A stretch of 64,000 nucleotides of DNA from assembly GCA_026645935.1 (NCBI GenBank), contig JAPKMP010000004.1, positions 44,047 through 108,046 on the forward strand. Reading direction: 5' to 3'. A program made the translations under genes and the position numbers. Below are positions 5,762 through 38,287 of the stretch, piece after piece (position 1 is the stretch's first letter; every line of letters begins with the position of its first letter). The DNA is from Candidatus Villigracilaceae bacterium (GTDB lineage Bacteria; Chloroflexota; Anaerolineae; Anaerolineales; Villigracilaceae). The notes under the pieces were generated by a model. It had not been told where the DNA came from. It ran no database searches and saw only the letters and a program-made list of their open reading frames with translations.

Positions 5762-7138
5762 TTATTGGTAAACCTTCACTTCGGAGTACGGGCTTGGGTT
5801 ATCAAACAAGCCTGAAGGGTTATCTCTCAAAGTCAACTCGAAGAAATCGATCAGGTAATTGTTCACGATCTCGGTCACGCGCTTTCCATTCAAAGGACCT
5901 TTAAGACCCAGTTGCGGCGCGATGGGTGAGAAGAGCGGCAGGTCGCTGAAATCGTAATGCCTCGTGCCGTCGATGACAATGACGCCGAGATTATTTTGAT
6001 TATGGGGATTGAACTCGCGAAAGAGGCGGTTATTTTTGCTGTCGGTTATATCCGCCCAAGCCTGCGAAAACATAAAGAAGGACGGCATGGGCAAACCGCT
6101 TTCGATGACTTCGGCGGAGACAGGACGCATGAACGGGTCCATGCCGAGGACGGATCGACAGCGCGAATCGATTCCGCAGAACTGGATCGCCGCGCCTCCA
6201 CCCGTCGAATGGCCGTATGCGCCGACCCGGGCTGAGTCCACGCTGGAGGCGAATGGGTTGCTGTCATCTGCAGACAAGATCAAATCCAGGGTGTGACTCA
6301 TATCGCCAGCCCATTGACCCGCAAGAATGCGCGCAACCTCTTCGTAGTTCGGGTCGTCTGCATCTGAGGGTAGGGCGTTCGGGTTGTTTGGCGCAATCGA
6401 CCCATCGGGGAAGACCGTGACGACCGCCCCATACGTGTGTTGAATTCCGATCACGATGTAGCCGTGACTGGCGAGTTCCAATGCCTGACCGGCGTTCTGC
6501 GCGTTGAATCCGTTCCAGCCGTGCGAGAACAATATGACAGGAAATTTTTCGGCGGAAGCTGCAACGTCCGCGTTCTTGTATGCGGGGATTTGCGCGAGTG
6601 CGAGATGATCGAGAAAGAAGGAGGGTAGATCGATGTATGTGGCAATGGCGGGAGCAAAGATATCGGCGCGTTCCATCCAGGAAGCGCGATCATCCGTCGC
6701 TTTGACGTCGGCGGGATACCAGACTTGAATCATGTATCGCCGCGGCTCGTCTTTGCCGGAGTAAAGTTCCCTGCGCGATTCATCCACCATTTCGAGGATC
6801 CGCGTTCCGACTTGAAAGGGTCCGCTTGGGGCGGGGATGCGGGGAACCGGCAGCAGAATGGGTAAAGCGGTCGAAACAGCGACCAGGACCAACGTCAGGT
6901 AGGAGGCGGTGGATTTCCAATCGCTTGTTCCGAAGATTTTTGTCAACGCGCTGATGGCAAGCAGGGATGCCAGCGCATAGAGCGGAATCATCTGCCAGCG
7001 GTAGCCTTCGACGGCGAAATGAATCAGCGTGACGAGAAGAGCCAGCGCGGGCAGGAGTCGAACGGCGAGGGGGCGCGGATGACTCCATGCAAGATACAGT
7101 GTCAAAAAAGACGGGATGAGAATTTCGAGGGGGCGCAT
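5762..7138 (-). CDS. membrane-anchored alpha/beta hydrolase (PAF-acetylhydrolase/lipase-like)
   Basis: 458 aa with about 4 N-terminal TM helices, then a hydrolase fold with the nucleophile elbow GHSTGG. Confidence 0.6.
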   Translation of the reverse strand: MRPLEILIPSFLTLYLAWSHPRPLAVRLLPALALLVTLIHFAVEGYRWQMIPLYALASLLAISALTKIFGTSDWKSTASYLTLVLVAVSTALPILLPVPRIPAPSGPFQVGTRILEMVDESRRELYSGKDEPRRYMIQVWYPADVKATDDRASWMERADIFAPAIATYIDLPSFFLDHLALAQIPAYKNADVAASAEKFPVILFSHGWNGFNAQNAGQALELASHGYIVIGIQHTYGAVVTVFPDGSIAPNNPNALPSDADDPNYEEVARILAGQWAGDMSHTLDLILSADDSNPFASSVDSARVGAYGHSTGGGAAIQFCGIDSRCRSVLGMDPFMRPVSAEVIESGLPMPSFFMFSQAWADITDSKNNRLFREFNPHNQNNLGVIVIDGTRHYDFSDLPLFSPIAPQLGLKGPLNGKRVTEIVNNYLIDFFELTLRDNPSGLFDNPSPYSEVKVYQ

Positions 7139-7779: not shown

Positions 7780-8131
7780 GATATTTTCCTTTGAAAATGT
7801 ATTGTACCAAAGGAAAATATATTGCCGCTAAGCGGTGGGTGGAGTTAAGAGTAGCAATTGCCCCCTTCGCCGTCCTTCGACCGGCTCAGGACAAGCCATG
7901 GCGAAGGATATCCCTGGTCAAGTTATGTTGGCTATGTTCGGACCAAGCCGCAAGAACAAAACGCGAATTCCGCTAATCATGCGAATATTTCGCGGAATTC
8001 GTCGCATTCACGCCATTCGCATTAAGAATTTTCTCCCACTTGCCGGACGGCGGCACATCTCTTGCACATGAGTTGCCGTCAATTTTTAGGCTCTGTTGCA
8101 AAGAAGTCACAGAGCAATTCTCAAATTGATA

Positions 8132-8470
8132 TCAACTCCCCCACCATTGTAACAAGCCAAAGGAGAATTCACCTGCCTCCTCGTTCATACCCCGTTCCAC
8201 TCGTCCTGTTTGGACGCTGGCGGCAAGTTGCGACAGGATCTGTGGCGAGGCAAAACCATAGATCAACGCATCTTTGGCTGTTTCTGCGCTCAGGATCCAG
8301 GCGGTCAACCCGCCTACACCTACAAGCAGAAGTGTCCCCAGCCAGAAATTCAACTTTCTCAGATAATTTGGAAGGCGAATCTTGCGCCTGTTTCGGATGA
8401 TGCGCAGGACATCCGGGAGCAGACCACCCAGACAGCCAAACAGGAAAAGGGGTAAATCAAATGCAGGCAT
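8132..8470 (-). CDS. small two-TM membrane protein, hypothetical (third gene of the CHAT module)
   Basis: 112 aa with two hydrophobic helices separated by a basic loop (RIIRNRRKIRLPNYLRK). It starts 21 nt after the lipoprotein gene. Confidence 0.55.
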   Translation of the reverse strand: MPAFDLPLFLFGCLGGLLPDVLRIIRNRRKIRLPNYLRKLNFWLGTLLLVGVGGLTAWILSAETAKDALIYGFASPQILSQLAASVQTGRVERGMNEEAGEFSFGLLQWWGS

Positions 8471-8491
8471 GGTTCCTCCGTGAATCGTCGA

Positions 8492-9688
8492 TTAGTATCC
8501 GCTCAATACGAGGATGGGTAGGTTCGTTGCTTCCAGTTCGGCAAAAACCGCCTCTGCGTTGTCCGGGTTGAACGATTGGATATTGACCACAAACCTCTGG
8601 TAAGCCCTCAACTCATCTGCAATGGCAAAGGCAAGATCTGCAAGGCCGGGGATGCTCTCGTCATATACGAGAAAGATTTCCAGTTCGGTCGGATAGCCAG
8701 CCTCATCCAATAGCCTCCTCGCATTTTCCGTATCATAAGGGATCGAGCGCAAATCCAATGTCTCCCCATGTGCTTCGAATGCGCTGGGCATGGGAACATC
8801 AGGGAAGATTTGCCCCAACTTCACCCAATCGATAAAGTTAATGGCTGCTTCTGTAACGCGGAAATCCTCTGGCTGATCGGTTAGCCAGCGAAGACCCAAC
8901 ACAATGGGTTCAGGCAATGGGACCATCGGCAAGCCCTGGCTACGCAAAATCAGGTTGGCGCTCTGGATTTGCCGCACCTGGTCCATTGACTCGATGGGAC
9001 CAATCATCTGTTCAAAATCAACTTCCACGCCCGGAGGAAAACCAAAGAAACCCTCTGCTTGTTCGCGGAACTCGTTCGTCACCGCATAAGCGGCCAGGCC
9101 GGGATGGACTTCGAACACCTGGTCGGGCTGGTCAGTGGGTGTCACCTCTGCCACTCCTTCAGAACTGAGAACAACAGCCACTTCCAATTCACGATACTCG
9201 ATAATCGTAACCATAGTTCCCTTGAAGACGACGCTGGCCGGCAAGGTCACAGCCCGAATGCCGCAGTTGTTCAATAGCCAGGTGGAAGCGTTTGTGCAAC
9301 CTTGTCCCGTTGTACCCTTTGGGCAGGTCGTGATCGCTTCGCTTAGAACGCCTGCGGAACTTTGTTGAAATACATAAACGGTGCAGGTATTGCTGGGATA
9401 ATCCTTCCTCATCTTACCCTGACCATTTGAATCAGTAGTGACATAACCGTTGACCACGATCTTTTTCCAGGTATTGGTCAAAAGATCCACCTGCGATGTA
9501 GAAATCGTCGAGCCCCACACTTTGTTGTACAAACCGTATCGCTGCGCCTCCCATCCTGTTTTGGTGACCTGCACACCGGGCTGGGGAGCCGGACCGCACC
9601 CACCCGTCAGAGCAAAGATGACGATCAACATCAGCCAGAGAATTGCCCGGTGTAGATCGAAATCGCGCCGTTGAATTTGATTTTTCAT
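8492..9688 (-). CDS. lipoprotein, hypothetical, with a C-terminal segment resembling family-5 solute-binding proteins
   Basis: 398 aa with a signal peptide and lipobox LTGGC. The C-terminal NARRLLDEAGYPTELEIFLVYDES...IADELRAYQRFVVNIQSF resembles an SBP_bac_5 segment. Confidence 0.55.
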   Translation of the reverse strand: MKNQIQRRDFDLHRAILWLMLIVIFALTGGCGPAPQPGVQVTKTGWEAQRYGLYNKVWGSTISTSQVDLLTNTWKKIVVNGYVTTDSNGQGKMRKDYPSNTCTVYVFQQSSAGVLSEAITTCPKGTTGQGCTNASTWLLNNCGIRAVTLPASVVFKGTMVTIIEYRELEVAVVLSSEGVAEVTPTDQPDQVFEVHPGLAAYAVTNEFREQAEGFFGFPPGVEVDFEQMIGPIESMDQVRQIQSANLILRSQGLPMVPLPEPIVLGLRWLTDQPEDFRVTEAAINFIDWVKLGQIFPDVPMPSAFEAHGETLDLRSIPYDTENARRLLDEAGYPTELEIFLVYDESIPGLADLAFAIADELRAYQRFVVNIQSFNPDNAEAVFAELEATNLPILVLSGY

Positions 9689-9744: not shown

Positions 9745-12384
9745 TCAGCCTGCCAGTCCCAAACGGGTCATTAACTTTCTCCACGCCGCTCCCAATCCTG
9801 TTTGTGGGAAGTGAAGTCCCACTGTGATTCCCACAACCAGCACGACCCCAACCAGCGCGGCGTCAAGTATGCTCCACCATTGTTCGAAGCAATTGACGAA
9901 TAAACCTGCCGAGGCGGACCCATCGAAACAGGCTTTGCCGGTTTCAATGGGAATGTTTTGATCGAAGGCAGCTTGCAAAACGGGATACAAGCTGTATTTA
10001 TTACTGATGGCCTCGCCTGGTTCGATGACGGAGGAAGCCAGCCACTGCGCGTTATCCAGGATGTAGGTTCCATCCCGTCCGGTCATCGCCTCGACCAGCA
10101 CTGGAGCCTGGATCAGTGCCAGCAAAACCGCCGTCAACATCAATCGCCTTCCCCAATTTAATTTGCCCAGCCTCCAACCAGCCTGCGGTTGATCCATCAG
10201 ACCGAGGTTTAATCCCAGTCCGGCAAGAAATGCCGCCGCGAGGAATCGCAGGAAAGTGTCAGCGCTCAAGCCAATTCCATTCAGCCAGGCTACAAATCCA
10301 TTGGCGAGGCAAAAGCCAAGCGCGCCAAGCAGAATGGAAAGCCCTCTGGATGGGTGGATTGAAGCGGCGGAGTGTTCCTGAAAATCCAGCAGGCGTAAAG
10401 GAACGGCCAAAACCATGCCATACACCAACCCCAGCCCGATGATGAATCCCCAATACGAATTGATCGCAAATTCGGTTCCCATTGGCTGGGCGTTGAAGAT
10501 GGCAAGAAATGCGCGGTAAATCGCCAAAGCCAGGCCTGCCCCGATTGCCCCACCGAAGGTCCAACGGTTAATCCGCGTACGATTGCGATGGATATGCTTC
10601 CGCGCCCGCCACCACCAGACTCCCGCCCGATCCGGGTATTGATCCAATTTCTGTGGCAGGTGTTTCGCAAACTCTGCATCGGCTTCTGCCAACGCCCCCA
10701 ATAGCATGGCTCGGCGCTGGCGTCGGAAGGCATTGTTTTTGAGTTCGAGAAGCGCCTCTTGAATTTTCGAAAAGACGATATCCGGTTGCACCGCGAGTAA
10801 TGCTAATGCGGCTGTCTGACTCGTTGACGAATTCGAATGGCCTGCCGCTATCCACGCCAGAGGGTTGATTTCATTCTTCGGCAATGGGTTGTCGGATAAA
10901 AAATCCAGTCCCAATGATTTTTCCGCCAGCCCGTTCTCCTCATCAGGTTCAAGGAATGACATTTTCTGAATCGATTCCAGCCATTTCAAACCCACCCTGC
11001 GAAGTTGCCGCACCCAATGCGCAGTCTCCTGATCAGTTTCGATGGCGGAATGGAGCAGGAGAACGGCATCCAGCGGGCCAAGGCTCAAAGAGTCACCCCC
11101 CAGTTTCAAAGTCTGTAATTGAAGCGGGTTGGCCGGGGCTTTCATCTGTACCCATCGCATCAAAACTTCGCTCAAGGCGGTATCCCTTTCGGATATTTTT
11201 TCCGCTTCCAGCCGCGCCTGTTCATCGGTTACTGGCGGGAAAATATTTCCGCCCGAATTCCGCAGGTAAAGCACTGGCGCGCCCCAATCCCGTTGCCTTG
11301 GGTCTTCGCGATGGATGGCCTTGCGGGCCTGCGTGACTGCTTCGTCAATGGTCAGCCCAGCGACGAGATATTCGTACAGTTTGGTGGCGAACAATTTTGT
11401 GAGATCGTCATAAATCGAATATTGCATTGCAACAACGGCGGGAATTCCACCGCGTAACAAAGCCATTGCGACACTGCTCCATTGCAGGAAGCGATCGCGT
11501 TCGCCTGACTCGCAGGCATCCAGCACGACCAAACGAATGTGACCCTCTGCCAGCAATCCGCTTAGGATTTCCGCTTGAACTTCCTCCGCCTTGTTATTCT
11601 CATCGGCAAGGATCAATGCTCCGTGCCCCTGTCCTTGGTTGCCGCCGTCCCTGAAAATTCCGTGACCGCTGAAATGGAATACATCTGCAGAATCTCGCAG
11701 GGCTTTCTGAATGGTATCCTGAGTGACTCCCAGTTCATCGTTTTCCAAATCAAAATCGGGGTGATACTCGGCTTTGACGCCATTGATCTCGCGCAGTTTC
11801 CCCTTAATGGCAGTTTGCTCATTTTCCAGGTCGAGTCTAGGGTATTTCTCGTAAGGTTCCGGGCTGGCCATAGCGATAATCACTCGTCGATTGGGGCTGG
11901 CACGAAAAGACGCGGCTGGAACCGAGATCGCCTCATGCCGGACGATGGAGATGCGAAAATCCAAAGCCCAATGGTCCTCAGGGACGATTTCGCCATCGTG
12001 TAGTTTTACCAGAGCATATTCCCAGGGCAGGAAAGCAAGTTCCTGCAGGAGCCGCAGGCGTATTCGCAATCCGTCGCCTTCCTGCAACCGGGCGAGACTG
12101 CTTTGATATAACTGGCGCGCATAGGGAGGCAGAATGATTTCTCCCAACCGCTGGGCGAGTTTCTCGAAGTCTTTGCGGGTGATTTGCCTGTCTGCTAAAT
12201 TCTTTCGCCACTTTTCGAGTTGATCCCAATCCCCGATGGCAACTTCCTCGTCGTGTTCCCCTTCTCCCACTGGCGAGTCGAAAATCCGCAAAGAGAATTT
12301 ACCCGGCCTTCCTCTTGTGTCTGGTTTGCTGTCGTTGATGGAGTCGGTGTAGATGACGAAGTCGCGATAGTTGCGGATGGACAT
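9745..12384 (-). CDS. CHAT-domain (caspase-like) protease fused to a HEAT-like region and a C-terminal polytopic membrane domain
   Basis: 879 aa. The catalytic dyad context is VFHFSGHG and RLVVLDACESGE. The middle is helical and HEAT-like. The last ~300 aa have about 6-7 TM helices and one ~70-aa Cys-containing loop. Confidence 0.8.
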   Translation of the reverse strand: MSIRNYRDFVIYTDSINDSKPDTRGRPGKFSLRIFDSPVGEGEHDEEVAIGDWDQLEKWRKNLADRQITRKDFEKLAQRLGEIILPPYARQLYQSSLARLQEGDGLRIRLRLLQELAFLPWEYALVKLHDGEIVPEDHWALDFRISIVRHEAISVPAASFRASPNRRVIIAMASPEPYEKYPRLDLENEQTAIKGKLREINGVKAEYHPDFDLENDELGVTQDTIQKALRDSADVFHFSGHGIFRDGGNQGQGHGALILADENNKAEEVQAEILSGLLAEGHIRLVVLDACESGERDRFLQWSSVAMALLRGGIPAVVAMQYSIYDDLTKLFATKLYEYLVAGLTIDEAVTQARKAIHREDPRQRDWGAPVLYLRNSGGNIFPPVTDEQARLEAEKISERDTALSEVLMRWVQMKAPANPLQLQTLKLGGDSLSLGPLDAVLLLHSAIETDQETAHWVRQLRRVGLKWLESIQKMSFLEPDEENGLAEKSLGLDFLSDNPLPKNEINPLAWIAAGHSNSSTSQTAALALLAVQPDIVFSKIQEALLELKNNAFRRQRRAMLLGALAEADAEFAKHLPQKLDQYPDRAGVWWWRARKHIHRNRTRINRWTFGGAIGAGLALAIYRAFLAIFNAQPMGTEFAINSYWGFIIGLGLVYGMVLAVPLRLLDFQEHSAASIHPSRGLSILLGALGFCLANGFVAWLNGIGLSADTFLRFLAAAFLAGLGLNLGLMDQPQAGWRLGKLNWGRRLMLTAVLLALIQAPVLVEAMTGRDGTYILDNAQWLASSVIEPGEAISNKYSLYPVLQAAFDQNIPIETGKACFDGSASAGLFVNCFEQWWSILDAALVGVVLVVGITVGLHFPQTGLGAAWRKLMTRLGLAG

Positions 12385-13379: not shown

Positions 13380-13408
13380 GTGACACTCACCAGCGAGGTG
13401 AGTGTCAC
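13380..13408. repeat. GTGAC-type hairpin element just downstream of the extended DsrE-like gene
   Basis: gtgacactcacc-agcga-ggtgagtgtcac is a 12-bp perfect stem. Related hairpins lie at 16773-16805 and 47959-47993. Confidence 0.6.
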
Positions 13409-13419
13409 TTTAGGTAGCG

Positions 13420-13776
13420 CTAGTATGCAAGCACTTGATCGGCTTCCACCGTCCAATCGCCGAGCAAGTCCATGCTGCCCCATTCTATTCCTTCGGTAAG
13501 GTCTTCGAGCCCGAGACCTCGGGCTTGACTGCATGTGCCTCAGGTGGCGACTTTGCCTTTCTTCACCAGTGACTTGACCATGCGTTCGACGTTGTAATAG
13601 CCGTCAGGCGTGGTTTGACCTTTGCGGGCGCAAAAGACTGCATCGGCGACCAAAAAGACTTGGACTTCGACGCCTTCACGCTTGACCAAATTCATGGCGT
13701 GACGAAGGGCGTTGTAGGGACGCTCGTTTCCGTAGGGGGCATCGTTGACGATGAATAGATATTTTTTGGCTTCCAT
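13420..13776 (-). CDS. DsrE/DsrF-like sulfur-relay family protein, candidate selenoprotein (in-frame TGA at 13542-13540)
   Basis: The track ORF stops after ...KKGKVAT. The same frame continues TGA-GTCSQARGLGLEDLTEGIEWGSMDLLGDWTVEADQVLAY-TAG. This restores the family-typical length of 118 aa and places TGA at the first Cys of the conserved CGTC..ARG motif. Confidence 0.6.
13508..13525 (-). promoter_or_regulatory. candidate bacterial SECIS hairpin
   Basis: On the mRNA, UGA is followed by 14 nt, then AGCCCGA-GGUC-UCGGGCU (7-bp stem, GGUC loop). The CGAGGUCUCG apex resembles the E. coli fdhF SECIS apex GCAGGUCUGC as I recall it. Confidence 0.5.
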
Positions 13777-13788
13777 TTTTGTTTCCTT

Positions 13789-15045
13789 TTATTGCATGGT
13801 TCGAGAAAACTCTTCGATGAGGGTGCAGGTGTCATGGAGAGCTTGTTCGGGATGAATTTGAAGCGCGAGGGTTTTACAACGTTCGAGAACAGTTGCCGAT
13901 GAGACCAGTTTTTCTAAAGCGCGAGCGAGGGTTTCGGGGTTGAACTGCTTGGGGTCGAGGGTGAGACCGATGCCGAGTCTTGCCACACGAGTAGCGGTAT
14001 CGGGTTGGTCATGCGCCATCGGGCGGATGACTTGTGGGATGCCCGCCGCAATTGCCTGTGCAGTTGTGCCAATGCCGCCGTGATGGACAAGCGCCAGCGC
14101 GCGCGGTAGAACCTTGCCAAACGGCACATAGCTGAAATGTTGAACGCCATCTGGCAGTTGAGCGGATAGTTGTTCGGGATGTTGTGTTAGTAGAATGCCG
14201 CGCTGACCGATCATCTGACAGGCGTATGCACAATCTTGAAAGAATTGCTCTCCGTGCTTCATGGCGGTGCCTGCTGTAAAAATGACCGGGGGACTGCCCT
14301 CGTTGAGGAAAGTTTCAAGATCGGGCGGAAGGGGTTCATCGTCTTGTTGCGGGTCATAAATGATGAAATCTGTCAGTTTCGTGTTGGGCGTCCAGTCCGC
14401 TTGCGGCTGGGCGAACCAGTTGGGGAACAAGCCGAGGTTCAGTTGCGGGGAGTGCATCCAGCCGCCAAAAATGCTTTGGATGGCGGGCAAGCCGAGGCTG
14501 AGCCTGAAGCGGTTGATGTTGGGGGCGAAGAGTTTATCGAGCAGGAGGGCGTCTATCAGGCGGAATAATCCGCGCACGAGGAAGGATGGTAATGGGATGG
14601 GGGATAGCGGAAAGTCGTGGACGCTGCGAAAGGCGGCGGGTTGTAAGTGGACGGTGATGAAGGGTATGCTGAGTTTTTCATGCGCAATATGTGCGGCGAA
14701 GAATTGTCCTTGCGCGATGAGAATGGTTTGGGAAGGGTCGAAGCTTGCGATGACTTGATAGGCGGGTTCCATGATGGGGAAGACGACGCGCTCAGCAAAG
14801 ACTTTGAAGCCTTTGTCGGGGCTCCAAAGATCGGGGTCTTGGATGATGGAACGGTAATCTTCGACGTTGCCCAGTCCGAAGAATTCGAGCCCGGCATCGC
14901 GCGCATGAGATTCGAAATACTGGCTGGTGATGAATGCAACGCGAAAGCCGCGTTCTTTTAATTGTTTGCCGATGGCGATGAATGGATACACATCTCCCGC
15001 GCTGCCGATGGTGCAGAGCAGAATTGTTTTCTCTGTTTTGGTCAT
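13789..15045 (-). CDS. GT1-family glycosyltransferase (UDP-glycosyltransferase/MGT-like)
   Basis: 418 aa with an N-terminal ILLCTIGSAGDVYPFIAIG and the C-terminal donor-binding motif HHGGIGTTAQAIAAGIPQVIRPMAHDQ. Confidence 0.8.
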   Translation of the reverse strand: MTKTEKTILLCTIGSAGDVYPFIAIGKQLKERGFRVAFITSQYFESHARDAGLEFFGLGNVEDYRSIIQDPDLWSPDKGFKVFAERVVFPIMEPAYQVIASFDPSQTILIAQGQFFAAHIAHEKLSIPFITVHLQPAAFRSVHDFPLSPIPLPSFLVRGLFRLIDALLLDKLFAPNINRFRLSLGLPAIQSIFGGWMHSPQLNLGLFPNWFAQPQADWTPNTKLTDFIIYDPQQDDEPLPPDLETFLNEGSPPVIFTAGTAMKHGEQFFQDCAYACQMIGQRGILLTQHPEQLSAQLPDGVQHFSYVPFGKVLPRALALVHHGGIGTTAQAIAAGIPQVIRPMAHDQPDTATRVARLGIGLTLDPKQFNPETLARALEKLVSSATVLERCKTLALQIHPEQALHDTCTLIEEFSRTMQ

Positions 15046-15078: not shown

Positions 15079-16302
15079 CTACTGCGCCACTTTTGCAGAT
15101 AGGACCAGCCACACTTCCATCTCTCCCTTGCCCTTTACACTGACAGCGCCGCGAGGCTCGCACACAAACTCCTCCTTGATCAGCTCATAGGTGGCTTGCG
15201 TGATCTGTACAGCGCCTCCCAAGCCATGCGACTCCATCCGGCTGGCAATATTGACCGCATCTCCCCATACGTCGTAGACAAATTTTCGACGACCGATCAC
15301 ACCCGCGATCATGGAACCTGAATTGATGCCAATGCGAAAACTAAGGCGCCGACCGTTGCGAAACGTATGAGTGGAAATATAGTCGCGCATCTCCATCGCC
15401 ATGTACACCAGAGCTTGCGCATGATCGAGACGTCCGCGCGGCACCCCGGAAGCGACCATATAACTATCCCCGATCGTTCTGATCTTTTCCACGCCGTATT
15501 TATCTAAGAGCGAATCGAAGAAAGAAAAGACCTCATTAAGCAGTTCGACCATTTCCACCGGCGGCAATTGCTCGGAAAGCGGAGTGAAGCCCACCATGTC
15601 TGCAAATAGAACGCTGGCTTCGTTAAAATGATCTGCGATCGTGCGGCTCTCATTTTTAAGAATGGCGGCGATCTCTTTCGGCAGGATGTTCAACAATAGC
15701 GTTTCGGACTTCTGTTGAAATGTATTTTTCTGACCGACAAAGTAAAAAACCATCATGAAAACCAACGAGCCGACCGCGAGAAGGTTCAGGGAAAAGAAGA
15801 AGATCACCAATGCAGTGGATAGGTTGTTGGTAAAACGTGCGTAGGGTTGTAAAAACCCGCTGAGAACAACAAGGATTGCAAAGGCAAGAAACCAGCGCGG
15901 CGCGCGGCGCGGTTCATCGAAGAGTAATGCGCCGAGGGGGCAGATCAGCGACCACAAAATGACGGCGCTGCCATTAACGAAACCGCCCAATGCTACCATC
16001 AGAAAAAAGGGCAGGAGCAGGATCAACGCCAGTTGACTGAAACGAAAAAAGCGATACTGGCGCGTCCGCCCAAAGTGAACGATGCTAATGAGGGAGATTA
16101 AGGAATAAGAGAGCGGGATCGCCCCGGCGAGCGGCTCGTCTGTGAAGACATATATCAAGCCCCATGCGATCCCCGCGACCATAAAGGGAATGGCGCAAAC
16201 GACCAATAGCGATTTTTGCAGGCGGATTTCGTCCTCGTCATCCGGGTCCGAGCCGATCCGTGCTATGGATGGAAGCATCTGTGCCATTATTTTCTGAATC
16301 AT
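15079..16302 (-). CDS. class III adenylate/guanylate cyclase with an N-terminal 6-TM domain
   Basis: 407 aa. Cyclase motifs are VLFADMVGFT, KIRTIGDSYMVASG and VWGDAVNIASRMES. Confidence 0.85.
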   Translation of the reverse strand: MIQKIMAQMLPSIARIGSDPDDEDEIRLQKSLLVVCAIPFMVAGIAWGLIYVFTDEPLAGAIPLSYSLISLISIVHFGRTRQYRFFRFSQLALILLLPFFLMVALGGFVNGSAVILWSLICPLGALLFDEPRRAPRWFLAFAILVVLSGFLQPYARFTNNLSTALVIFFFSLNLLAVGSLVFMMVFYFVGQKNTFQQKSETLLLNILPKEIAAILKNESRTIADHFNEASVLFADMVGFTPLSEQLPPVEMVELLNEVFSFFDSLLDKYGVEKIRTIGDSYMVASGVPRGRLDHAQALVYMAMEMRDYISTHTFRNGRRLSFRIGINSGSMIAGVIGRRKFVYDVWGDAVNIASRMESHGLGGAVQITQATYELIKEEFVCEPRGAVSVKGKGEMEVWLVLSAKVAQ

Positions 16303-17038: not shown

Positions 17039-20000
17039 TTATTGTCCCTCCACAATCCGTATCTCTTCCTCACTCAACCCATACAACTCATAAACCAGAC
17101 GATCAATCGCCGCATCCGTGGACTCGATCTCGCGCTTGACCATTTCCTGTTCTTGCGGAGTTCTTGGGGCTTGCTTGTGTAATGCCAACATGCGCTCGAC
17201 CAGCGAGACCAGTTTGTCGTGCCGGGCTTTGTCGGCGGAGTCGTCGAAGTTGATTGGACGGATGGGAAAGGGAGATAAGTAATTGGTTTTGAACCTGAAA
17301 TATCCACCACGCAAGGTTGTGCCTGTATTAGATAGATACCACCAAAATGTTTTTGAGTTCATAACACCAAGAATGTACAACTTGTTTATGGGAAAGTTCT
17401 TTCTAACCACTAGACTGTAAACTTGAGTATTATGATACATTCCTTTAGGTGCTAAGGACATATTGCCACCTAAACTAATTTCTGGTGTAACAATCCGTTC
17501 AATCTCAAATACATTCATATCCCTGCTTCTATGACATGAATACCAATACTTAGGGTTGGTCTTTTGTCTTACGCGAATTTCAGTTAATTCTTTTTGATAT
17601 TCCTTAAGATATGCATAGCCTTTAGGAAATCTGCTTTTTAGTTCAGTCTCTTCTATTATCTTTGTTTTACCATCCGCTAACTTGTAAGGATAAATACAAT
17701 AATATGAGTTTGTAGGTTCTGAGTATCGATTTACATCCTCGCCTGTCAAAAAAGGTTTCACTAGACTGGATTCGATCTCTACACTTTGTTCTGCTCTTTC
17801 GGAGAATAATTTATAAATACCACCCTTCAACTCTTCCTCGAACTTTAGAACGTGAATATTATCAATCCCAGATTGTACGCCTACCAATATTTCTTCACAT
17901 ACATCGCCAAGTGTAAGAGGTTGTTTTGACAAGGTTGCTAGAATAGAAGGAACATTTTTCTTTGCTAAAGTCCACGGGGTATCAGAAAAATCTTTTAAGC
18001 TGTAAGTTGTAAAGTCATCTTCTGTTAATTTGAACAAGGTTGGTTGAATGTTAATAGCTGGAATGTTTTCGAACTCGTGATATTTGAATTGCTCTAAAGA
18101 CTCATTCCGTAAAAACAACAATCCTGTGTAAGTTGAAGCCTGGTCGAAAACTAAATTATTCCCGAAACTGATAAGTTTTTCGATTGCTAGTTTCTTGGTA
18201 AGAAAGCCTCGTAGACCTGACCCAAAATCAGAATTGATAAATTTATGAGGACAAATAAAACCTAATCGTCCATTTTGTTGTAAGAGTTTATAGGCTTTCT
18301 CAATGAAAAGTAGATATAAGTCAAATCGTTTGACTGCACTTTCATATTTTGAAGAAAAATATTCTATTTGATCGTTGTAGTTTTCCTGTAACCCCTGAAT
18401 TCTCAGGTACGGTGGATTTCCAATCACAGCATCGAAGCCGCCCTGAATGAACACCTGTGGAAAACCAGCTTTCCAGTTGAAGGCGTTCACGCGGTAGCGT
18501 TCTTCTTCGTCCACCAACATGGTCAATTGCCGCCCTTCGTAGTAATCATTGCCGATCAACGAGTTGCCGCATTTGATGTTCTTGCCCAAGTCTGGCAAGA
18601 CTCGCTCTTGGAACAACGCCAACTGCGAGCCGATGGTCTCGCGGCTTTCGCCTTCCAAGACCTTCAATAATAACGAGAGTTTGGTCACTTCCACGGCTTG
18701 CGGGTCAATGTCTACTCCGTAGATGTTGTTAAGCAGGATGTCTTTTTTCTTCGAGGTCGTTAGCCTATAGCCGTCTTTGGTTTGGAAGATAACCGGCTTC
18801 TTGCCCGTCGCCCATTTCTCAGGGTCGTGTTCCATGTACCATTTCAAATGCCAGTCCAGCAAATACTGATACGCCCCAAGCGGGAAGGTCCCAGACCCAC
18901 AAGCCGGGTCGAGCACGCGGATTTTTTCGGCTTCCTTGGGGGTCTTGCCTTCCAGCAACCTGCCTACCGTGTTCTCGACAATATACTCCACGATATAGGT
19001 CGGCGTGTAATACACCCCGCCCGCCTTGCGCACTTCGGGCTTTTCCTCCACCTTGGCGCGGTGTCCCGCCGTCAGGCGAATCACCTTGCCGAGGAAGCGT
19101 TCATACACCTGCCCTAAAATATCCGCCGGAATTTCGCGGAAGACATACGGGCTTTCAGGGTAATACAAATTCTTGATGATGTCCTTCAACGGCTTATCAT
19201 CGATCTTGAGGGTCAGGGTCAGCGTATCGGTCGGGCTGGAGGCATCTTTCTCTTCCGAAAAATGGAACAAGCCGGAGTTATATCTAGCGTCGGCTCGTTT
19301 GAATAACAGGCAGAGATTTTCATAAATATCCCCGCTTTCACCGATCTCTTTCAATTGTTCGTCCCGTTCCACGCCCCGGTCTTCGCAGATGCGCAGAAAG
19401 ACGATGCGGTCGATGATCATCTGCACGGCGTAGTTCAACTCGCGCACGTTCAGGCTTTCATTGCGTAAGGCAATATTATTTGCGAGCAGGTCGCGCCAGC
19501 GTTCGATCTCCGCCAGAAAGGCGTCGTCCACTTCGGCAGTGCCTTTTTTGAGCTTTGCGCTTTCAGCGAAGGCATCGAAGGAGCCCCGTAATACAGCATC
19601 TCGCGAGAAGATGCTTGCGATCTCGTCCCATTTTTCAACATAATCTTTATAGGAATACAATTTGACACGCCCCACTGAAGCCTTGTCTTTTTTATCGGGC
19701 TTGGCGCGGCAATCGTAAATGGCCAACTCTTCGAAATCCGAAAGGATACTGAGCGGCAGTTTTGCGCTCCAGGCATAACGGCGTAATTGAAAGGCGGGGT
19801 GAATATCCGTCTCGATCTTGACGGCGGGTTTCTTGGCTTCTAAAAAGAACTTTCTCTGCCCGCCGATGCGAAAGGCATAATCGGGCGCTTTATTTTCCCC
19901 TTCGATCTCCAGGCTATCTTCATGCACCACATCCTTGTACATCTCAGCATAGCCCTGTTTATTGAACACATCCCAACCGAGCGCCTCAAAGAACGGATCG

Positions 20001-20107
20001 AGGAACTCGCGCCGGAGTTGCGTCTCGTTGTACCTGCCGGAACGGTAGGTTTCGCGGTGTTCATCAAATCTTTGCACAAGTTGGCGGATGATGTCTGGGG
20101 CAGTCAT
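17039..20107 (-). CDS. Type IIG restriction-modification enzyme (fused PD-ExK nuclease, N6-adenine methyltransferase and specificity domain; MmeI/Eco57I-like)
   Basis: 1022 aa. The N-terminal nuclease context is PDYAF...FFLEAKKP. SAM motif I is VLDPACGSGTFP and motif IV is VIGNPPY. It has a long C-terminal TRD and the tail IDRLVYELYGLSEEEIRIVEGQ. Confidence 0.85.
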   Translation of the reverse strand: MTAPDIIRQLVQRFDEHRETYRSGRYNETQLRREFLDPFFEALGWDVFNKQGYAEMYKDVVHEDSLEIEGENKAPDYAFRIGGQRKFFLEAKKPAVKIETDIHPAFQLRRYAWSAKLPLSILSDFEELAIYDCRAKPDKKDKASVGRVKLYSYKDYVEKWDEIASIFSRDAVLRGSFDAFAESAKLKKGTAEVDDAFLAEIERWRDLLANNIALRNESLNVRELNYAVQMIIDRIVFLRICEDRGVERDEQLKEIGESGDIYENLCLLFKRADARYNSGLFHFSEEKDASSPTDTLTLTLKIDDKPLKDIIKNLYYPESPYVFREIPADILGQVYERFLGKVIRLTAGHRAKVEEKPEVRKAGGVYYTPTYIVEYIVENTVGRLLEGKTPKEAEKIRVLDPACGSGTFPLGAYQYLLDWHLKWYMEHDPEKWATGKKPVIFQTKDGYRLTTSKKKDILLNNIYGVDIDPQAVEVTKLSLLLKVLEGESRETIGSQLALFQERVLPDLGKNIKCGNSLIGNDYYEGRQLTMLVDEEERYRVNAFNWKAGFPQVFIQGGFDAVIGNPPYLRIQGLQENYNDQIEYFSSKYESAVKRFDLYLLFIEKAYKLLQQNGRLGFICPHKFINSDFGSGLRGFLTKKLAIEKLISFGNNLVFDQASTYTGLLFLRNESLEQFKYHEFENIPAINIQPTLFKLTEDDFTTYSLKDFSDTPWTLAKKNVPSILATLSKQPLTLGDVCEEILVGVQSGIDNIHVLKFEEELKGGIYKLFSERAEQSVEIESSLVKPFLTGEDVNRYSEPTNSYYCIYPYKLADGKTKIIEETELKSRFPKGYAYLKEYQKELTEIRVRQKTNPKYWYSCHRSRDMNVFEIERIVTPEISLGGNMSLAPKGMYHNTQVYSLVVRKNFPINKLYILGVMNSKTFWWYLSNTGTTLRGGYFRFKTNYLSPFPIRPINFDDSADKARHDKLVSLVERMLALHKQAPRTPQEQEMVKREIESTDAAIDRLVYELYGLSEEEIRIVEGQ

Positions 20108-37216: not shown

Positions 37217-38287
37217 ATGACCGAGAAACGGAATGTGGTCGTTGCCATGTCCGGCGGCGTGGATTCGTCTGTCGCGGCGGCAATGTTAAAGGAACAGGGT
37301 TACGATGTGACCGGGATGATGCTGCGTTTGTGGAGCGAGCCTGGCAAAGAGGACTCGAACCGCTGCTGTACGCCCGACTCGATGGCGCAGGCGCGGCGCG
37401 TGGCGGGGATTCTAGATATTCCTTTCTATGTGGTGGATGCGAAGGATGTCTTCCGGGAAACGGTGGTGCAATATTTCCTGGATGGGTATGCAAAAGGCGG
37501 GACGCCGAATCCGTGCCTGATCTGCAACCGCCAGATCCGCTGGACGTTTTTATTGAATCATGCTCTGGCGTTGGGGGCTGAGTTTATGGCGACTGGTCAT
37601 TATGTTCGGATAAAGAAATATGAAAGAGGAAAGAGTGAATTATTTAGGGCGGTGGATCACTTGAAAGACCAGTCGTATGTGTTGCATGTGTTGGGACAGG
37701 AAAAGTTGAAGCATGCGCTCTTTCCAGTGGGGGATTATCCCAAACCCGAGATTCGTGCAATTGCCGAGCGATTTGGCTTGCCGACAGCTTCGCGTAAAGA
37801 CTCGCAGGACTTGTGTTTTTTGGCTGGGGAGGATTACCGGAACTTTCTTCAGCGTAATGCGCCGGAGATGTTGAAGCCCGGGGCAATTGAAACGCCCGAT
37901 GGAAACGTGATCGGCAGGCATAATGGACTGGCAAACTACACTATCGGTCAGCGCAAGGGATTGGGAGTCGCTTCGCCTGTACCGCTTTACGTGATTACGA
38001 AACACGCGTCACGCAACACCTTAATCGTTGGCACACAGGATCAGATGGGTGCGACAGAGTTGATCGCGCACAATGTTAACTGGGTGAGCGGGGAGATTCC
38101 ACCCGAGCCTTTCCGGGCGGAAGTAAAAACCCGTTACACGGCAAAGGAAGTTCCGGCGTGGGTAAGGCCTTTGGACGGTGACCAGGCTAAGGTCACGTTC
38201 GATGCGCCTGTGCGGGATGCGACGAAGGGTCAGGCGGCGGTATTTTACGTGGAGGAGAAAATGCTCGGCGGTGGTATCATCCAATAA
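37217..38287 (+). CDS. mnmA: tRNA 2-thiouridine(34) synthase
   Basis: 356 aa with the PP-loop VVAMSGGVDSSVAA, NPCLICN and DSQDLCFL. Confidence 0.95.
   Translation: MTEKRNVVVAMSGGVDSSVAAAMLKEQGYDVTGMMLRLWSEPGKEDSNRCCTPDSMAQARRVAGILDIPFYVVDAKDVFRETVVQYFLDGYAKGGTPNPCLICNRQIRWTFLLNHALALGAEFMATGHYVRIKKYERGKSELFRAVDHLKDQSYVLHVLGQEKLKHALFPVGDYPKPEIRAIAERFGLPTASRKDSQDLCFLAGEDYRNFLQRNAPEMLKPGAIETPDGNVIGRHNGLANYTIGQRKGLGVASPVPLYVITKHASRNTLIVGTQDQMGATELIAHNVNWVSGEIPPEPFRAEVKTRYTAKEVPAWVRPLDGDQAKVTFDAPVRDATKGQAAVFYVEEKMLGGGIIQ

What the first reader, a model, noticed from the sequence alone, without database searches (positions are those of the whole stretch)
13420..13776. In-frame TGA at the conserved CxxC cysteine of a DsrE-like protein, followed by an fdhF-like hairpin: candidate selenoprotein
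Seen in the sequence: the annotated 78-aa ORF ends ...KKGKVAT-TGA. The same frame stays open for 39 more codons (GTCSQARGLGLEDLTEGIEWGSMDLLGDWTVEADQVLAY-TAG), giving 118 aa. Stand-alone DsrE-family proteins as I remember them are about 115-120 aa with a C-terminal ...V.VCGTC.DARG...EG...M..LA.W...AD.V..F. The TGA therefore falls exactly on the first Cys of that CGTC motif, giving U-G-T-C, a classical UxxC redox arrangement. Fourteen nt after the UGA the mRNA forms AGCCCGA-GGUC-UCGGGCU. Its apex CGAGGUCUCG closely resembles the E. coli fdhF SECIS apex GCAGGUCUGC, at similar spacing. From memory, DsrE-like selenoproteins have been reported in metagenomic selenoproteome surveys. I cannot verify that here, and I do not know whether it has been seen in this lineage. 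The gene appears to be the last in an operon of membrane cyclase, GT1 glycosyltransferase and DsrE, with a 12-nt gap to the GT1 gene.
Basis: partly seen in the sequence, partly recalled or inferred. Interest (0 to 1): 0.68.

Follow-up and report, generated by a model that had tools for sequence, protein, structure and literature searches.

The report
Mis-annotated DsrE/YchN-type selenoprotein gene
A small sulfur-carrier-like gene that databases cut short at an internal TGA almost certainly reads that TGA as selenocysteine, making it a new member of an already described selenoprotein family rather than a new kind of thing.

Summary
The ORF at 13540-13776 (-) stops at TGA after 78 codons. The same frame runs 39 more codons to TAG at 13420-13422. 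The 118-aa product covers the whole Pfam DsrE domain.

Comparative evidence for selenocysteine is strong:
- All 81 homologous genes with an in-frame stop at this column (about 70 Anaerolineae/Chloroflexota species) use TGA, never TAA or TAG.
- 69 of 71 distinct genes have exactly 39 downstream codons, and these are under purifying selection (dN/dS about 0.22).
- Homologues without TGA have Cys at this column, which is also the catalytic Cys78 of TusD.
- The hairpin after the TGA fits the published bacterial SECIS model. It is conserved with compensatory changes and is broken in true Cys forms.

It is not new in kind: "DsrE-like, PF02635, UxxC" has been a listed prokaryotic selenoprotein family since 2004-2005, and selenocysteine decoding is known in Chloroflexi.

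The cyclase-GT1-DsrE arrangement in the window is not conserved. The recurrent neighbours in relatives are an ArsR-family regulator and a sulfide:quinone-reductase-like flavoprotein.

I could not test whether this genome carries the selenocysteine machinery. Interest is modest (0.3).

The parts
13420..13776 (-). Full-length gene for a 118-aa DsrE/YchN-family selenoprotein: ATG 13776-13774, Sec-UGA at codon 79, true stop TAG 13422-13420.
   Evidence: Translation. With U replaced by C it matches Pfam DsrE PF02635 over profile positions 1-115 of 116 at 69.5 bits, against 44.1 bits for the 78-aa stub. E. coli YchN (1JX7) aligns over residues 5-118, E = 9.4e-20.
13540..13542 (-). In-frame UGA, codon 79: predicted selenocysteine, first residue of the U-G-T-C motif.
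   Evidence: All 81 homologous genes with a stop at this column use TGA (0 TAA/TAG), while their terminal stops are TGA 35 / TAA 29 / TAG 19. The column is Cys in Cys forms, in YchN and at TusD Cys78.
13508..13525 (-). SECIS-type hairpin AGCCCGA-GGUC-UCGGGCU within the coding sequence: 7-bp stem, GGUC loop at 13518-13515, loop starting 21 nt after the UGA.
   Evidence: MFE -12.0 kcal/mol. It meets all four published bSECIS constraints. In 71 orthologues the core stem is about 99% paired; pair 21-32 is CG 46 / UA 19 / UG 5 / AU 1 with none broken; loop G25 and G26 are invariant; no shuffle of 500 reaches the covariation score. The stem is broken in true Cys forms.
13531..13533 (-). Cys82 codon (TGC), the resolving partner in the UxxC motif.
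   Evidence: Invariant in the protein alignments. Columns T10 and G11 are invariant in the 71-sequence DNA alignment.
13630..13632 (-). Cys49 codon (TGC), a third Cys conserved in this subfamily but absent from YchN.
   Evidence: Invariant in alignments A1, A2 and A4. YchN has Ala at the aligned position.
13783..13787 (-). Shine-Dalgarno-like AAGGA about 7 nt upstream of the ATG, inside the 12-nt gap after the GT1 gene.
   Evidence: Read directly from the sequence.
13380..13408 (-). Strong 12-bp hairpin starting 12 nt after the true TAG stop, with no U-tract. It may mark the 3' end of the transcript or stabilise it.
   Evidence: MFE -22.9 kcal/mol, z = -6.35, 0 of 200 shuffles fold as well. 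The T-tract-based terminator scan did not call it.
13789..15045 (-). Upstream co-directional GT1-family glycosyltransferase gene (local context only).
   Evidence: Pfam EryCIII-like_C, Glyco_transf_28 and UDPGT. An orthologue lies upstream of the DsrE gene only in L022 and L046 besides the window.

Best explanation
The gene at 13420-13776 (-) encodes a 118-residue YchN-type member of the DsrE/TusD sulfur-carrier fold. The catalytic cysteine is replaced by selenocysteine (U79), giving the motif U-G-T-C.

**Decoding.** Shown by comparison: the UGA is retained and read through, and an RNA hairpin downstream is under selection. Inferred: the hairpin starts 14 nt downstream and presents a G-G apical loop 21 nt after the UGA. 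It recruits SelB-GTP-Sec-tRNA(Sec) to the ribosome, so that Sec is inserted instead of termination. Gene callers that treat TGA as stop report a 78-aa stub.

**Function (inferred only).** U79 sits where a beta-strand ends and a helix begins, which is the position of TusD/DsrE Cys78. There it would accept a sulfane sulfur, or possibly selenium, as a Se-S adduct, or form a selenenylsulfide with Cys82. The protein would then act as a persulfide carrier or small redox protein. In relatives the commonest genomic partners are an ArsR-family regulator immediately upstream and a sulfide:quinone-reductase/flavocytochrome-c-like flavoprotein immediately downstream. This points to sulfide or persulfide handling or stress response. 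The window copy lacks that context.
For: **Read-through product is a complete domain.** The Pfam DsrE score rises from 44.1 bits (78 aa, profile positions 1-72) to 69.5 bits (118 aa, positions 1-115 of 116).

**Stop-codon specificity.** All 81 homologous genes with an in-frame stop at the column, from about 70 species-level genomes sharing 57-83% protein identity with the window gene, use TGA. The same genes terminate with TGA 35 / TAA 29 / TAG 19.

**Downstream coding constraint.** 69 of 71 distinct genes have exactly 39 codons after the TGA. Median dN/dS is 0.22 downstream and 0.14 upstream. Third-codon-position entropy is 1.44, against 0.75 and 0.61 for first and second positions.

**Sec/Cys pair.** Verified TGC codons occupy the same column in L093, L095, L088, L089 and L091. 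YchN CKTC aligns with UGTC. A profile alignment places the column on TusD Cys78.

**The hairpin is under RNA-level selection.**
- Compensatory changes link the Ala-codon wobble position to the middle base of the Gly/Glu/Val codon: C:G 46, U:A 19, U:G 5, A:U 1, none broken.
- The covariation score is 0.197 against 0.112 in shuffles (0 of 500 reach it), and it drops when partners are slid.
- The synonymous third positions C30 and G33 are fixed in 70 of 71 and 71 of 71 Sec forms.
- In the Cys form L095 the peptide is still ARGLGQ, but the codons are CTG and GGA and the stem is broken.

**bSECIS model fit.** The window hairpin meets the published criteria: 4-nt GGUC loop, 7-bp stem, 21-nt spacing, -12.0 kcal/mol. 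69 of 71 orthologues fold at -7.5 kcal/mol or lower. The loop GGUC is the same as in E. coli fdhF.

**TGA is an ordinary stop in this genome.** It ends 8 of 43 long ORFs in the window.

**Fold.** The AlphaFold2 model of the Cys homologue P0007 has pLDDT 94.6. The Cys aligned with U79 lies at a strand-to-helix junction. The best structural match is YchN (TM 0.89-0.91), followed by DsrEFH and TusBCD.

**Genomic context.** An ArsR-family gene lies upstream in 22 loci and an SQR/FCSD-like flavoprotein lies downstream in 22 loci, mostly on the same strand (21 of 24 and 21 of 22 gene copies). This includes Cys forms.

**Literature.** DsrE-like (PF02635, UxxC) is a listed selenoprotein family. SelB genes have been reported in Anaerolineales.
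Against: - No tRNA-Sec, SelA, SelB or SelD was found in the 64-kb window or in about 0.9 Mb of related loci. The Sec machinery of this genome is therefore unverified.
- Rfam has no matching family.
- The hairpin lacks the bulged U of the E. coli fdhF element.
- In isolation the 66-nt fold is not better than shuffles (z = -1.0).
- No experimental evidence exists for selenium incorporation or for any activity of this subfamily. The function of YchN itself is unknown.
- The ArsR/SQR-like context is absent from the window and from its closest relatives.
Confidence: 0.87

Rival explanations
1. The TGA is a genuine stop. The gene is a truncated 78-aa DsrE fragment or a pseudogene, and the downstream 39 codons are a decaying remnant.
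For: Every public gene call using the standard code stops there: 74 of the best 120 protein clusters are 76-82 aa. Two relatives carry extra premature stops: L026 has a TAG, and L065 has a TGA and a TAA.
Against: - A remnant would not keep exactly 39 codons in 69 of 71 genes, with dN/dS 0.22 and third-position-dominated variation, across genomes sharing only 57-83% identity.
- A remnant would not restrict the stop to TGA in 81 of 81 cases.
- A 78-aa product lacks the catalytic CxxC and the last third of the fold.
Confidence: 0.03
2. The UGA is read through, but not as selenocysteine. The hairpin stimulates near-cognate or suppressor decoding (Trp or Cys), or a Sec-like tRNA carries another amino acid.
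For: The Sec machinery could not be shown for this genome. Downstream RNA structures can promote stop-codon read-through (general knowledge). Cys forms of the same protein are evidently functional.
Against: - The hairpin fits the specific bSECIS constraints, with an invariant GG in a small apical loop at the right spacing.
- The recoded position is the catalytic Cys, the classical site of Sec/Cys exchange. The same family and motif are already catalogued as a selenoprotein.
- SelB is reported in Anaerolineales.
Confidence: 0.07
3. The lineage uses an alternative genetic code in which TGA is a sense codon (table 4/25-like), as suggested by database proteins with W at this position.
For: The closest 'full-length' database entries (P0001-P0006) have Trp at the column.
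Against: - P0002 is an artefact of code-4 gene calling. Under table 11 its DNA has TGA at the column, and its true terminal TGA was also read as W (...VYWW).
- TGA terminates 8 of 43 long ORFs in the window and 35 of 83 of the homologous genes themselves.
Confidence: 0.01

Closest known systems
DsrE-like selenoprotein family (Pfam PF02635, UxxC). First reported in Desulfovibrio vulgaris and in Sargasso Sea metagenomes. The example listed in the 2026 review is WP_014524487.1.
   Same: Same Pfam domain. Same U-x-x-C motif. Sec-UGA followed by a small stem-loop with G in the apical loop.
   Different: The described members are from Deltaproteobacteria and marine metagenomes. This one belongs to a large Anaerolineae/Chloroflexota clade. 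I could not retrieve the prototype sequence, so direct orthology was not tested. I found no publication describing the Anaerolineae clade or its ArsR/SQR-like neighbourhood, but I could not query curated databases such as BSepDB.
E. coli YchN (PDB 1JX7), a stand-alone DsrE-family protein of unknown function.
   Same: Full-length homology (E = 9.4e-20 for the single sequence, 1.3e-27 for the profile). The length is the same to within one residue: 118 aa here, 117 in YchN. YchN's C-K-T-C aligns with U-G-T-C. The Cys-homologue model superposes at TM 0.89-0.91 and 1.4 A rmsd.
   Different: YchN has Cys rather than Sec and lacks the subfamily-specific Cys49, which is Ala in YchN.
TusD (TusBCD) and DsrE (DsrEFH) sulfur-relay subunits.
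   Same: Same fold (TM 0.84-0.85). The U79 column aligns with the persulfide-carrying Cys78 of TusD.
   Different: - Sequence similarity is weak: the NCBIfam TusD score is 29.6 bits against a cut-off of 89.25.
- No TusB/TusC or DsrF/DsrH partner genes lie nearby.
- TusD and DsrE have a single Cys, not CxxC.
E. coli fdhF SECIS element.
   Same: Identical GGUC apical loop closed by an A-U pair, located within the coding sequence shortly after the UGA.
   Different: The loop begins 21 nt after the UGA rather than 18 nt. The stem sequence differs and there is no bulged U. Most relatives carry a 6-nt CGGGNU loop (mainly CGGGCU) instead.
YedF (TusA/SirA + DsrE-like domain with CGxC), linked to selenium utilisation by comparative genomics.
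   Same: A DsrE-like domain with a CGxC-type motif, proposed to act in Se-related redox chemistry.
   Different: YedF is a two-domain Cys protein that co-occurs with SelD. The window protein is single-domain, contains Sec, and has no TusA domain or neighbouring TusA gene.

Membership tests
Bacterial selenoprotein gene (Sec-UGA + bSECIS) | In-frame UGA aligned with Cys in homologues (Sec/Cys pair). | tested here: met
   Verified TGC codons at the same column in L088, L089, L091, L093 and L095. YchN CKTC aligns with UGTC.
Bacterial selenoprotein gene (Sec-UGA + bSECIS) | TGA-containing orthologues in other organisms, with conserved coding sequence on both sides of the TGA. | tested here: met
   TGA in 81 of 81 genes. 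69 of 71 have exactly 39 downstream codons. dN/dS is 0.22 downstream and 0.14 upstream.
Bacterial selenoprotein gene (Sec-UGA + bSECIS) | bSECIS model: apical loop of 3-9 nt, upper stem of 4-16 bp, G in the first two loop positions, 16-37 nt between UGA and loop, MFE at or below -7.5 kcal/mol (PMC13188914). | tested here: met
   Window hairpin: loop GGUC (4 nt), 7-bp stem, 21-nt spacing, -12.0 kcal/mol. 69 of 71 orthologues fold at -7.5 or lower. G25 and G26 are invariant.
Bacterial selenoprotein gene (Sec-UGA + bSECIS) | The hairpin is maintained by selection on RNA structure (covariation). | tested here: met
   Pair 21-32: CG 46 / UA 19 / UG 5 / AU 1, none broken. Pair 18-35: GC 44 / AU 8 / UA 1. 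No shuffle of 500 reaches the score. The stem is lost in Cys forms through synonymous changes.
Bacterial selenoprotein gene (Sec-UGA + bSECIS) | The genome encodes selA, selB, selC (tRNA-Sec) and selD. | not testable with these tools
   Only 64 kb of the genome is visible. No tRNA genes at all are in the window, and no tRNA-Sec or SelA/SelB/SelD signature motifs are in the window or in 91 related loci. The literature reports SelB in Anaerolineales SAGs and in A. thermophila.
Bacterial selenoprotein gene (Sec-UGA + bSECIS) | Selenium is incorporated at the UGA position (75Se labelling or mass spectrometry). | not testable with these tools
   This needs an experiment.
DsrE-like selenoprotein family (PF02635, UxxC) | Pfam DsrE domain above the gathering threshold. 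| tested here: met
   69.5 bits against a cut-off of 22.7, over profile positions 1-115 of 116.
DsrE-like selenoprotein family (PF02635, UxxC) | Sec in a UxxC redox motif. | tested here: met
   U79-G-T-C82. The motif is listed as UxxC in PMC1088965 and PMC13188914.
DsrE-like selenoprotein family (PF02635, UxxC) | Direct alignment or orthology with the published prototype (D. vulgaris; WP_014524487.1). | not tested
   The prototype sequence could not be retrieved with the available tools.
TusD/DsrE sulfur-relay subunit (TusBCD/DsrEFH) | Equivalog-level sequence match. | tested here: not met
   TIGR03012 scores 29.6 bits against a cut-off of 89.25. NF001237 scores 26.4 against 92.
TusD/DsrE sulfur-relay subunit (TusBCD/DsrEFH) | Adjacent partner subunits (TusB/TusC or DsrF/DsrH). 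| tested here: not met
   No further DsrE-family genes were found among the annotated window neighbours or the recurrent neighbour clusters of relatives.
TusD/DsrE sulfur-relay subunit (TusBCD/DsrEFH) | Catalytic Cys78 position occupied by a nucleophile. | tested here: met
   The profile alignment puts the U/C column on TusD Cys78, although the match is weak (E = 0.022). The fold match has TM 0.85.

The most novel reading that the evidence does not exclude
The Anaerolineae-wide clade (at least 70 species, almost all with Sec) may be an undescribed selenoprotein subfamily. In this reading it acts as a Se-based persulfide acceptor or carrier for an SQR-like flavoprotein, under an ArsR/BigR-type persulfide-sensing repressor. 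That would be the first selenocysteine component of a bacterial sulfide-detoxification or persulfide relay. Frequent and recent Sec-to-Cys switches in the clade would offer a natural experiment on why Sec is kept.
Probability: 0.2. Interest if true: 0.5.

Novelty: new member of a known kind. Interest (0 to 1): 0.3.

Why it matters
**Annotation.** This gene and dozens of orthologues are deposited as 76-82-aa 'DsrE family protein' stubs, or as code-4 artefacts with Trp at the Sec position. This includes the copy in a complete Anaerolineales genome. Correcting them restores the catalytic UxxC site.

**Biology.** The gene adds a widespread, well-supported selenoprotein to Anaerolineae. Its neighbourhood (ArsR-type regulator plus SQR-like flavoprotein) gives a testable hint about the unknown function of YchN-type DsrE proteins.

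**Limits.** It does not change what is known about selenocysteine decoding or about the catalogue of selenoprotein families.

Tried and rejected
- **Rfam.** Neither the gathering search nor the permissive search gave a SECIS family hit, only chance-level matches. Rfam appears to have no model for this element.
- **Sec machinery in the sequence I held.** ARAGORN on the window, and ARAGORN plus signature-motif scans for SelA (SGDKLLGGPQ-type), SelD (GxGC/UGCK) and SelB (GH[VI]DHGKT) on the window and 91 loci, found nothing. This says nothing about the rest of the genome.
- **Window genes.** Pfam annotation of 20 window genes found no sel genes.
- **Second selenoprotein in the window.** The scan for TGA-split ORFs left only the DsrE gene as credible. 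The candidates at 7973-8571 look non-coding or unconvincing.
- **Structure of the window protein itself.** I modelled the Cys homologue P0007 instead.
- **Alternative genetic code.** Considered and rejected.
- **Functional GT1/cyclase-DsrE operon.** GT1 orthologues lie upstream only in L022 and L046. This looks like local synteny, not a conserved module.
- **Literature.** Haft & Tolstoy 2025 (PMC12013261) and the BSepDB supplements were not available. I could not check whether the Anaerolineae members are already catalogued.

Full report
**1. The observation**

On the minus strand an ATG at 13776 opens a 78-codon ORF ending ...KKGKVAT, followed by TGA at 13542-13540. The same frame stays open for 39 more codons (GTCSQARGLGLEDLTEGIEWGSMDLLGDWTVEADQVLAY) to TAG at 13422-13420.

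The hairpin AGCCCGA-GGUC-UCGGGCU lies at 13525-13508, 14 nt after the UGA. It is the core of the predicted fold. The upstream GT1 gene ends 12 nt before the ATG. All stated facts are correct.

The hairpin on its own is not statistically remarkable: the 66-nt fold has z = -1.0. Everything therefore depends on comparative evidence.

**2. The read-through product is a complete domain**

With Cys in place of the UGA, the 118-aa product matches Pfam DsrE (PF02635) over profile positions 1-115 of 116 at 69.5 bits. The 78-aa stub covers only positions 1-72 at 44.1 bits.

The closest solved structure is E. coli YchN (1JX7, 117 aa). It aligns end to end (E = 9.4e-20), and its C-K-T-C lies on U-G-T-C. 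A profile of the family also aligns the U/C column with Cys78 of TusD, the persulfide-carrying residue, although that match is weak (E = 0.022).

I modelled a Cys-containing homologue, P0007 (62-63% identical to the window protein), with AlphaFold2. The model has pLDDT 94.6. The equivalent Cys sits at the end of a beta-strand and the start of a helix. The model superposes on YchN at TM 0.89-0.91, and on DsrE and TusD at TM 0.84-0.85.

**3. Relatives**

- A protein search returned 3328 hits. Of the best 120 clusters, 74 are 76-82 aa long, meaning they are cut at the same place. These include entries named 'DsrE family protein [Anaerolineales bacterium]'.
- The nearest 'full-length' entries have Trp at the column. 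I fetched the DNA of one of them, P0002. The Trp is TGA read under genetic code 4, and the true terminal TGA was also read as Trp.
- A scan of one genome per GTDB species gave 574 relatives. I examined the best 80, which are almost all Anaerolineae/Chloroflexota MAGs.
- Across these, plus loci holding identical or near-identical proteins, 81 genes have an in-frame stop at exactly this column, and all 81 use TGA. The terminal stops of the same genes are TGA 35, TAA 29 and TAG 19.
- Only the three most distant genes (L088, L089, L091) have TGC at the column.
- TGA is an ordinary stop in the window, ending 8 of 43 long ORFs. A reassigned genetic code is therefore excluded.

**4. The downstream codons are translated**

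Of 71 distinct TGA-containing genes, 69 have exactly 39 codons after the TGA. Median pairwise dN/dS is 0.22 downstream and 0.14 upstream. Variation is concentrated at third codon positions, with entropies of 0.75, 0.61 and 1.44 for positions 1, 2 and 3.

**5. The hairpin is a SECIS-type element under selection**

I aligned 71 sequences from the UGA onward without gaps.

- The core stem (columns 19-23 pairing with 30-34) is paired in about 99% of cells.
- Pair 21-32 occurs as C:G (46), U:A (19), U:G (5) and A:U (1), and is never broken.
- Pair 18-35 occurs as G:C (44), A:U (8) and U:A (1).
- Pair 19-34 includes two C:G swaps.
- Loop bases G25 and G26 are invariant.
- No shuffle of 500 reaches the observed covariation score, and the score falls when partners are slid.

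Column 21 is the wobble base of an Ala codon. Column 32 is the middle base of a Gly/Glu/Val codon. The protein therefore changes Gly to Glu to Val in step with a silent change 11 nt upstream. Coding constraint cannot explain this.

A natural control exists. Verified Cys forms close to the Sec forms have a broken stem (P0007 = L093 and P0011 = L095, both TGC). In L095 the peptide is still ARGLGQ, but Leu is CTG and Gly is GGA. In Sec forms these codons end in C in 70 of 71 sequences (CTC/ATC/TTC, column 30) and in G in 71 of 71 (GGG/GAG/GTG, column 33).

The window hairpin meets every constraint of the published bacterial SECIS model: a 4-nt GGUC loop, a 7-bp stem, G in the first loop positions, 21 nt between UGA and loop, and -12.0 kcal/mol. 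Of the orthologues, 69 of 71 fold at -7.5 kcal/mol or lower. They use either the GGUC loop (23) or a CGGGNU loop (46).

The E. coli fdhF element, fetched for comparison, has the same GGUC loop 18 nt after its UGA.

**6. What could not be shown**

The window has no tRNA genes. Neither the window nor about 0.9 Mb of related loci contains a tRNA-Sec or SelA/SelB/SelD signature motifs. No Rfam family matches.

Chloroflexi carry the Sec-decoding trait. Anaerolineales single-cell genomes and Anaerolinea thermophila encode SelB. Dehalococcoidia can have more than 45 selenoprotein genes.

**7. Function**

Nothing is known experimentally for YchN-type proteins. The following points are the available evidence:

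- Sec sits at the TusD/DsrE catalytic position.
- It has a resolving Cys three residues later.
- A third Cys, Cys49, is specific to this subfamily.

I infer a (per)sulfide or selenide carrier, or a small redox protein that cycles through a selenenylsulfide.

Neighbour clustering over the related loci gives the only contextual hint. An ArsR-family HTH gene lies immediately upstream in 22 loci. A Pyr_redox_2/FCSD_central flavoprotein, resembling sulfide:quinone reductase, lies about 114 nt downstream in 22 loci. Most copies are on the same strand as the DsrE gene, and these loci include Cys forms. Chromate transporter, PadR and P-type ATPase genes recur less often.

The window's subclade has lost this context. 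Its cyclase-GT1-DsrE arrangement is shared only with L022 and L046 and looks like local synteny.

A strong hairpin (-22.9 kcal/mol, z = -6.35) follows the true TAG stop, not the TGA. This is consistent with the longer gene.

**8. Comparison with what is known, and novelty**

'DsrE-like protein, PF02635, UxxC' is an established prokaryotic selenoprotein family. It was reported in Desulfovibrio vulgaris and in the Sargasso Sea (2 sequences, with a SECIS figure), and it appears in the 2026 review table.

The window gene meets the family's stated features: the domain, the motif, and a Sec-UGA followed by a stem-loop. It is not a TusD or DsrE orthologue, because its scores are far below the equivalog cut-offs and no partner subunits are nearby.

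It is therefore a new, currently mis-annotated member of a known kind. Two aspects are possibly undescribed: the size and near-universal Sec usage of the Anaerolineae clade, and its ArsR/SQR-like neighbourhood. I could not check curated databases for these.

**9. Verdict**

My confidence that this is a real Sec-encoding gene is about 0.87. The function is an inference. Interest is 0.3: a solid annotation correction with a modest functional lead, but not a surprise to specialists.

Noticed in passing
window 13380-13408 (-): A 12-bp perfect hairpin (GUGACACUCACC/GGUGAGUGUCAC, 5-nt loop) starts 12 nt after the true TAG stop. MFE is -22.9 kcal/mol and z = -6.35. It has no U-tract, so the terminator scan missed it. 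It may be a transcript 3' end or a stabiliser.
   Followed up: partly
L093 4663-6855; also L027, L047, L049, L058, L063, L067, L069, L072, L075 and L088: A recurrent three-gene arrangement: an ArsR-family HTH regulator, then the DsrE (Sec or Cys) gene, then an SQR/flavocytochrome-c-like Pyr_redox_2 flavoprotein, mostly on one strand. A small 4Fe-4S protein is sometimes inserted. This suggests a sulfide/persulfide-response module.
   Followed up: partly
P0001-P0006; L092 721-1080: Public protein collections hold 'full-length' versions of this selenoprotein with Trp at the Sec position. In P0002 there are also Trp residues past the true stop (...VYWW). The cause is that short metagenome contigs were gene-called with genetic code 4.
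   Followed up: yes
L026 (gene around 6001-6345) and L065 (gene around 6001-6351): Two relatives carry extra premature stops besides the Sec-TGA. L026 has a TAG 8 codons before the end. L065 has a TGA and a TAA in the N-terminal half. These are likely pseudogenes or assembly errors.
   Followed up: partly
L093 and L095 compared with Sec forms such as L041 and L064: Sec and Cys forms are interleaved among close relatives. This implies repeated and recent Sec/Cys switches within the clade, with rapid decay of the hairpin after the switch to Cys.
   Followed up: partly
window 9745-12384 (-), 15079-16302 (-), 17039-20107 (-): The gene neighbourhood is a mixed bag. It holds a CHAT-domain protein with a multi-pass membrane C-terminus, a membrane-anchored class III adenylate/guanylate cyclase, and a 1022-aa Eco57I/MmeI-type fused restriction-modification enzyme. 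None has an evident link to the selenoprotein.
   Followed up: no
window 37217-38287 (+): An MnmA-type tRNA 2-thiouridylase lies 24 kb away. In E. coli MnmA is the end-point of the TusBCD relay. Here no Tus partners are nearby, and the distance argues against a link.
   Followed up: no
L001-L010, downstream of the DsrE gene (for example L001 10419-16338): In the closest complete genome the selenoprotein gene converges on a conserved block: DUF1858, VIT1, cytochrome c, Ni_hydr_CYTB, cupin and a Crp-family regulator. This block is absent from the window.
   Followed up: no
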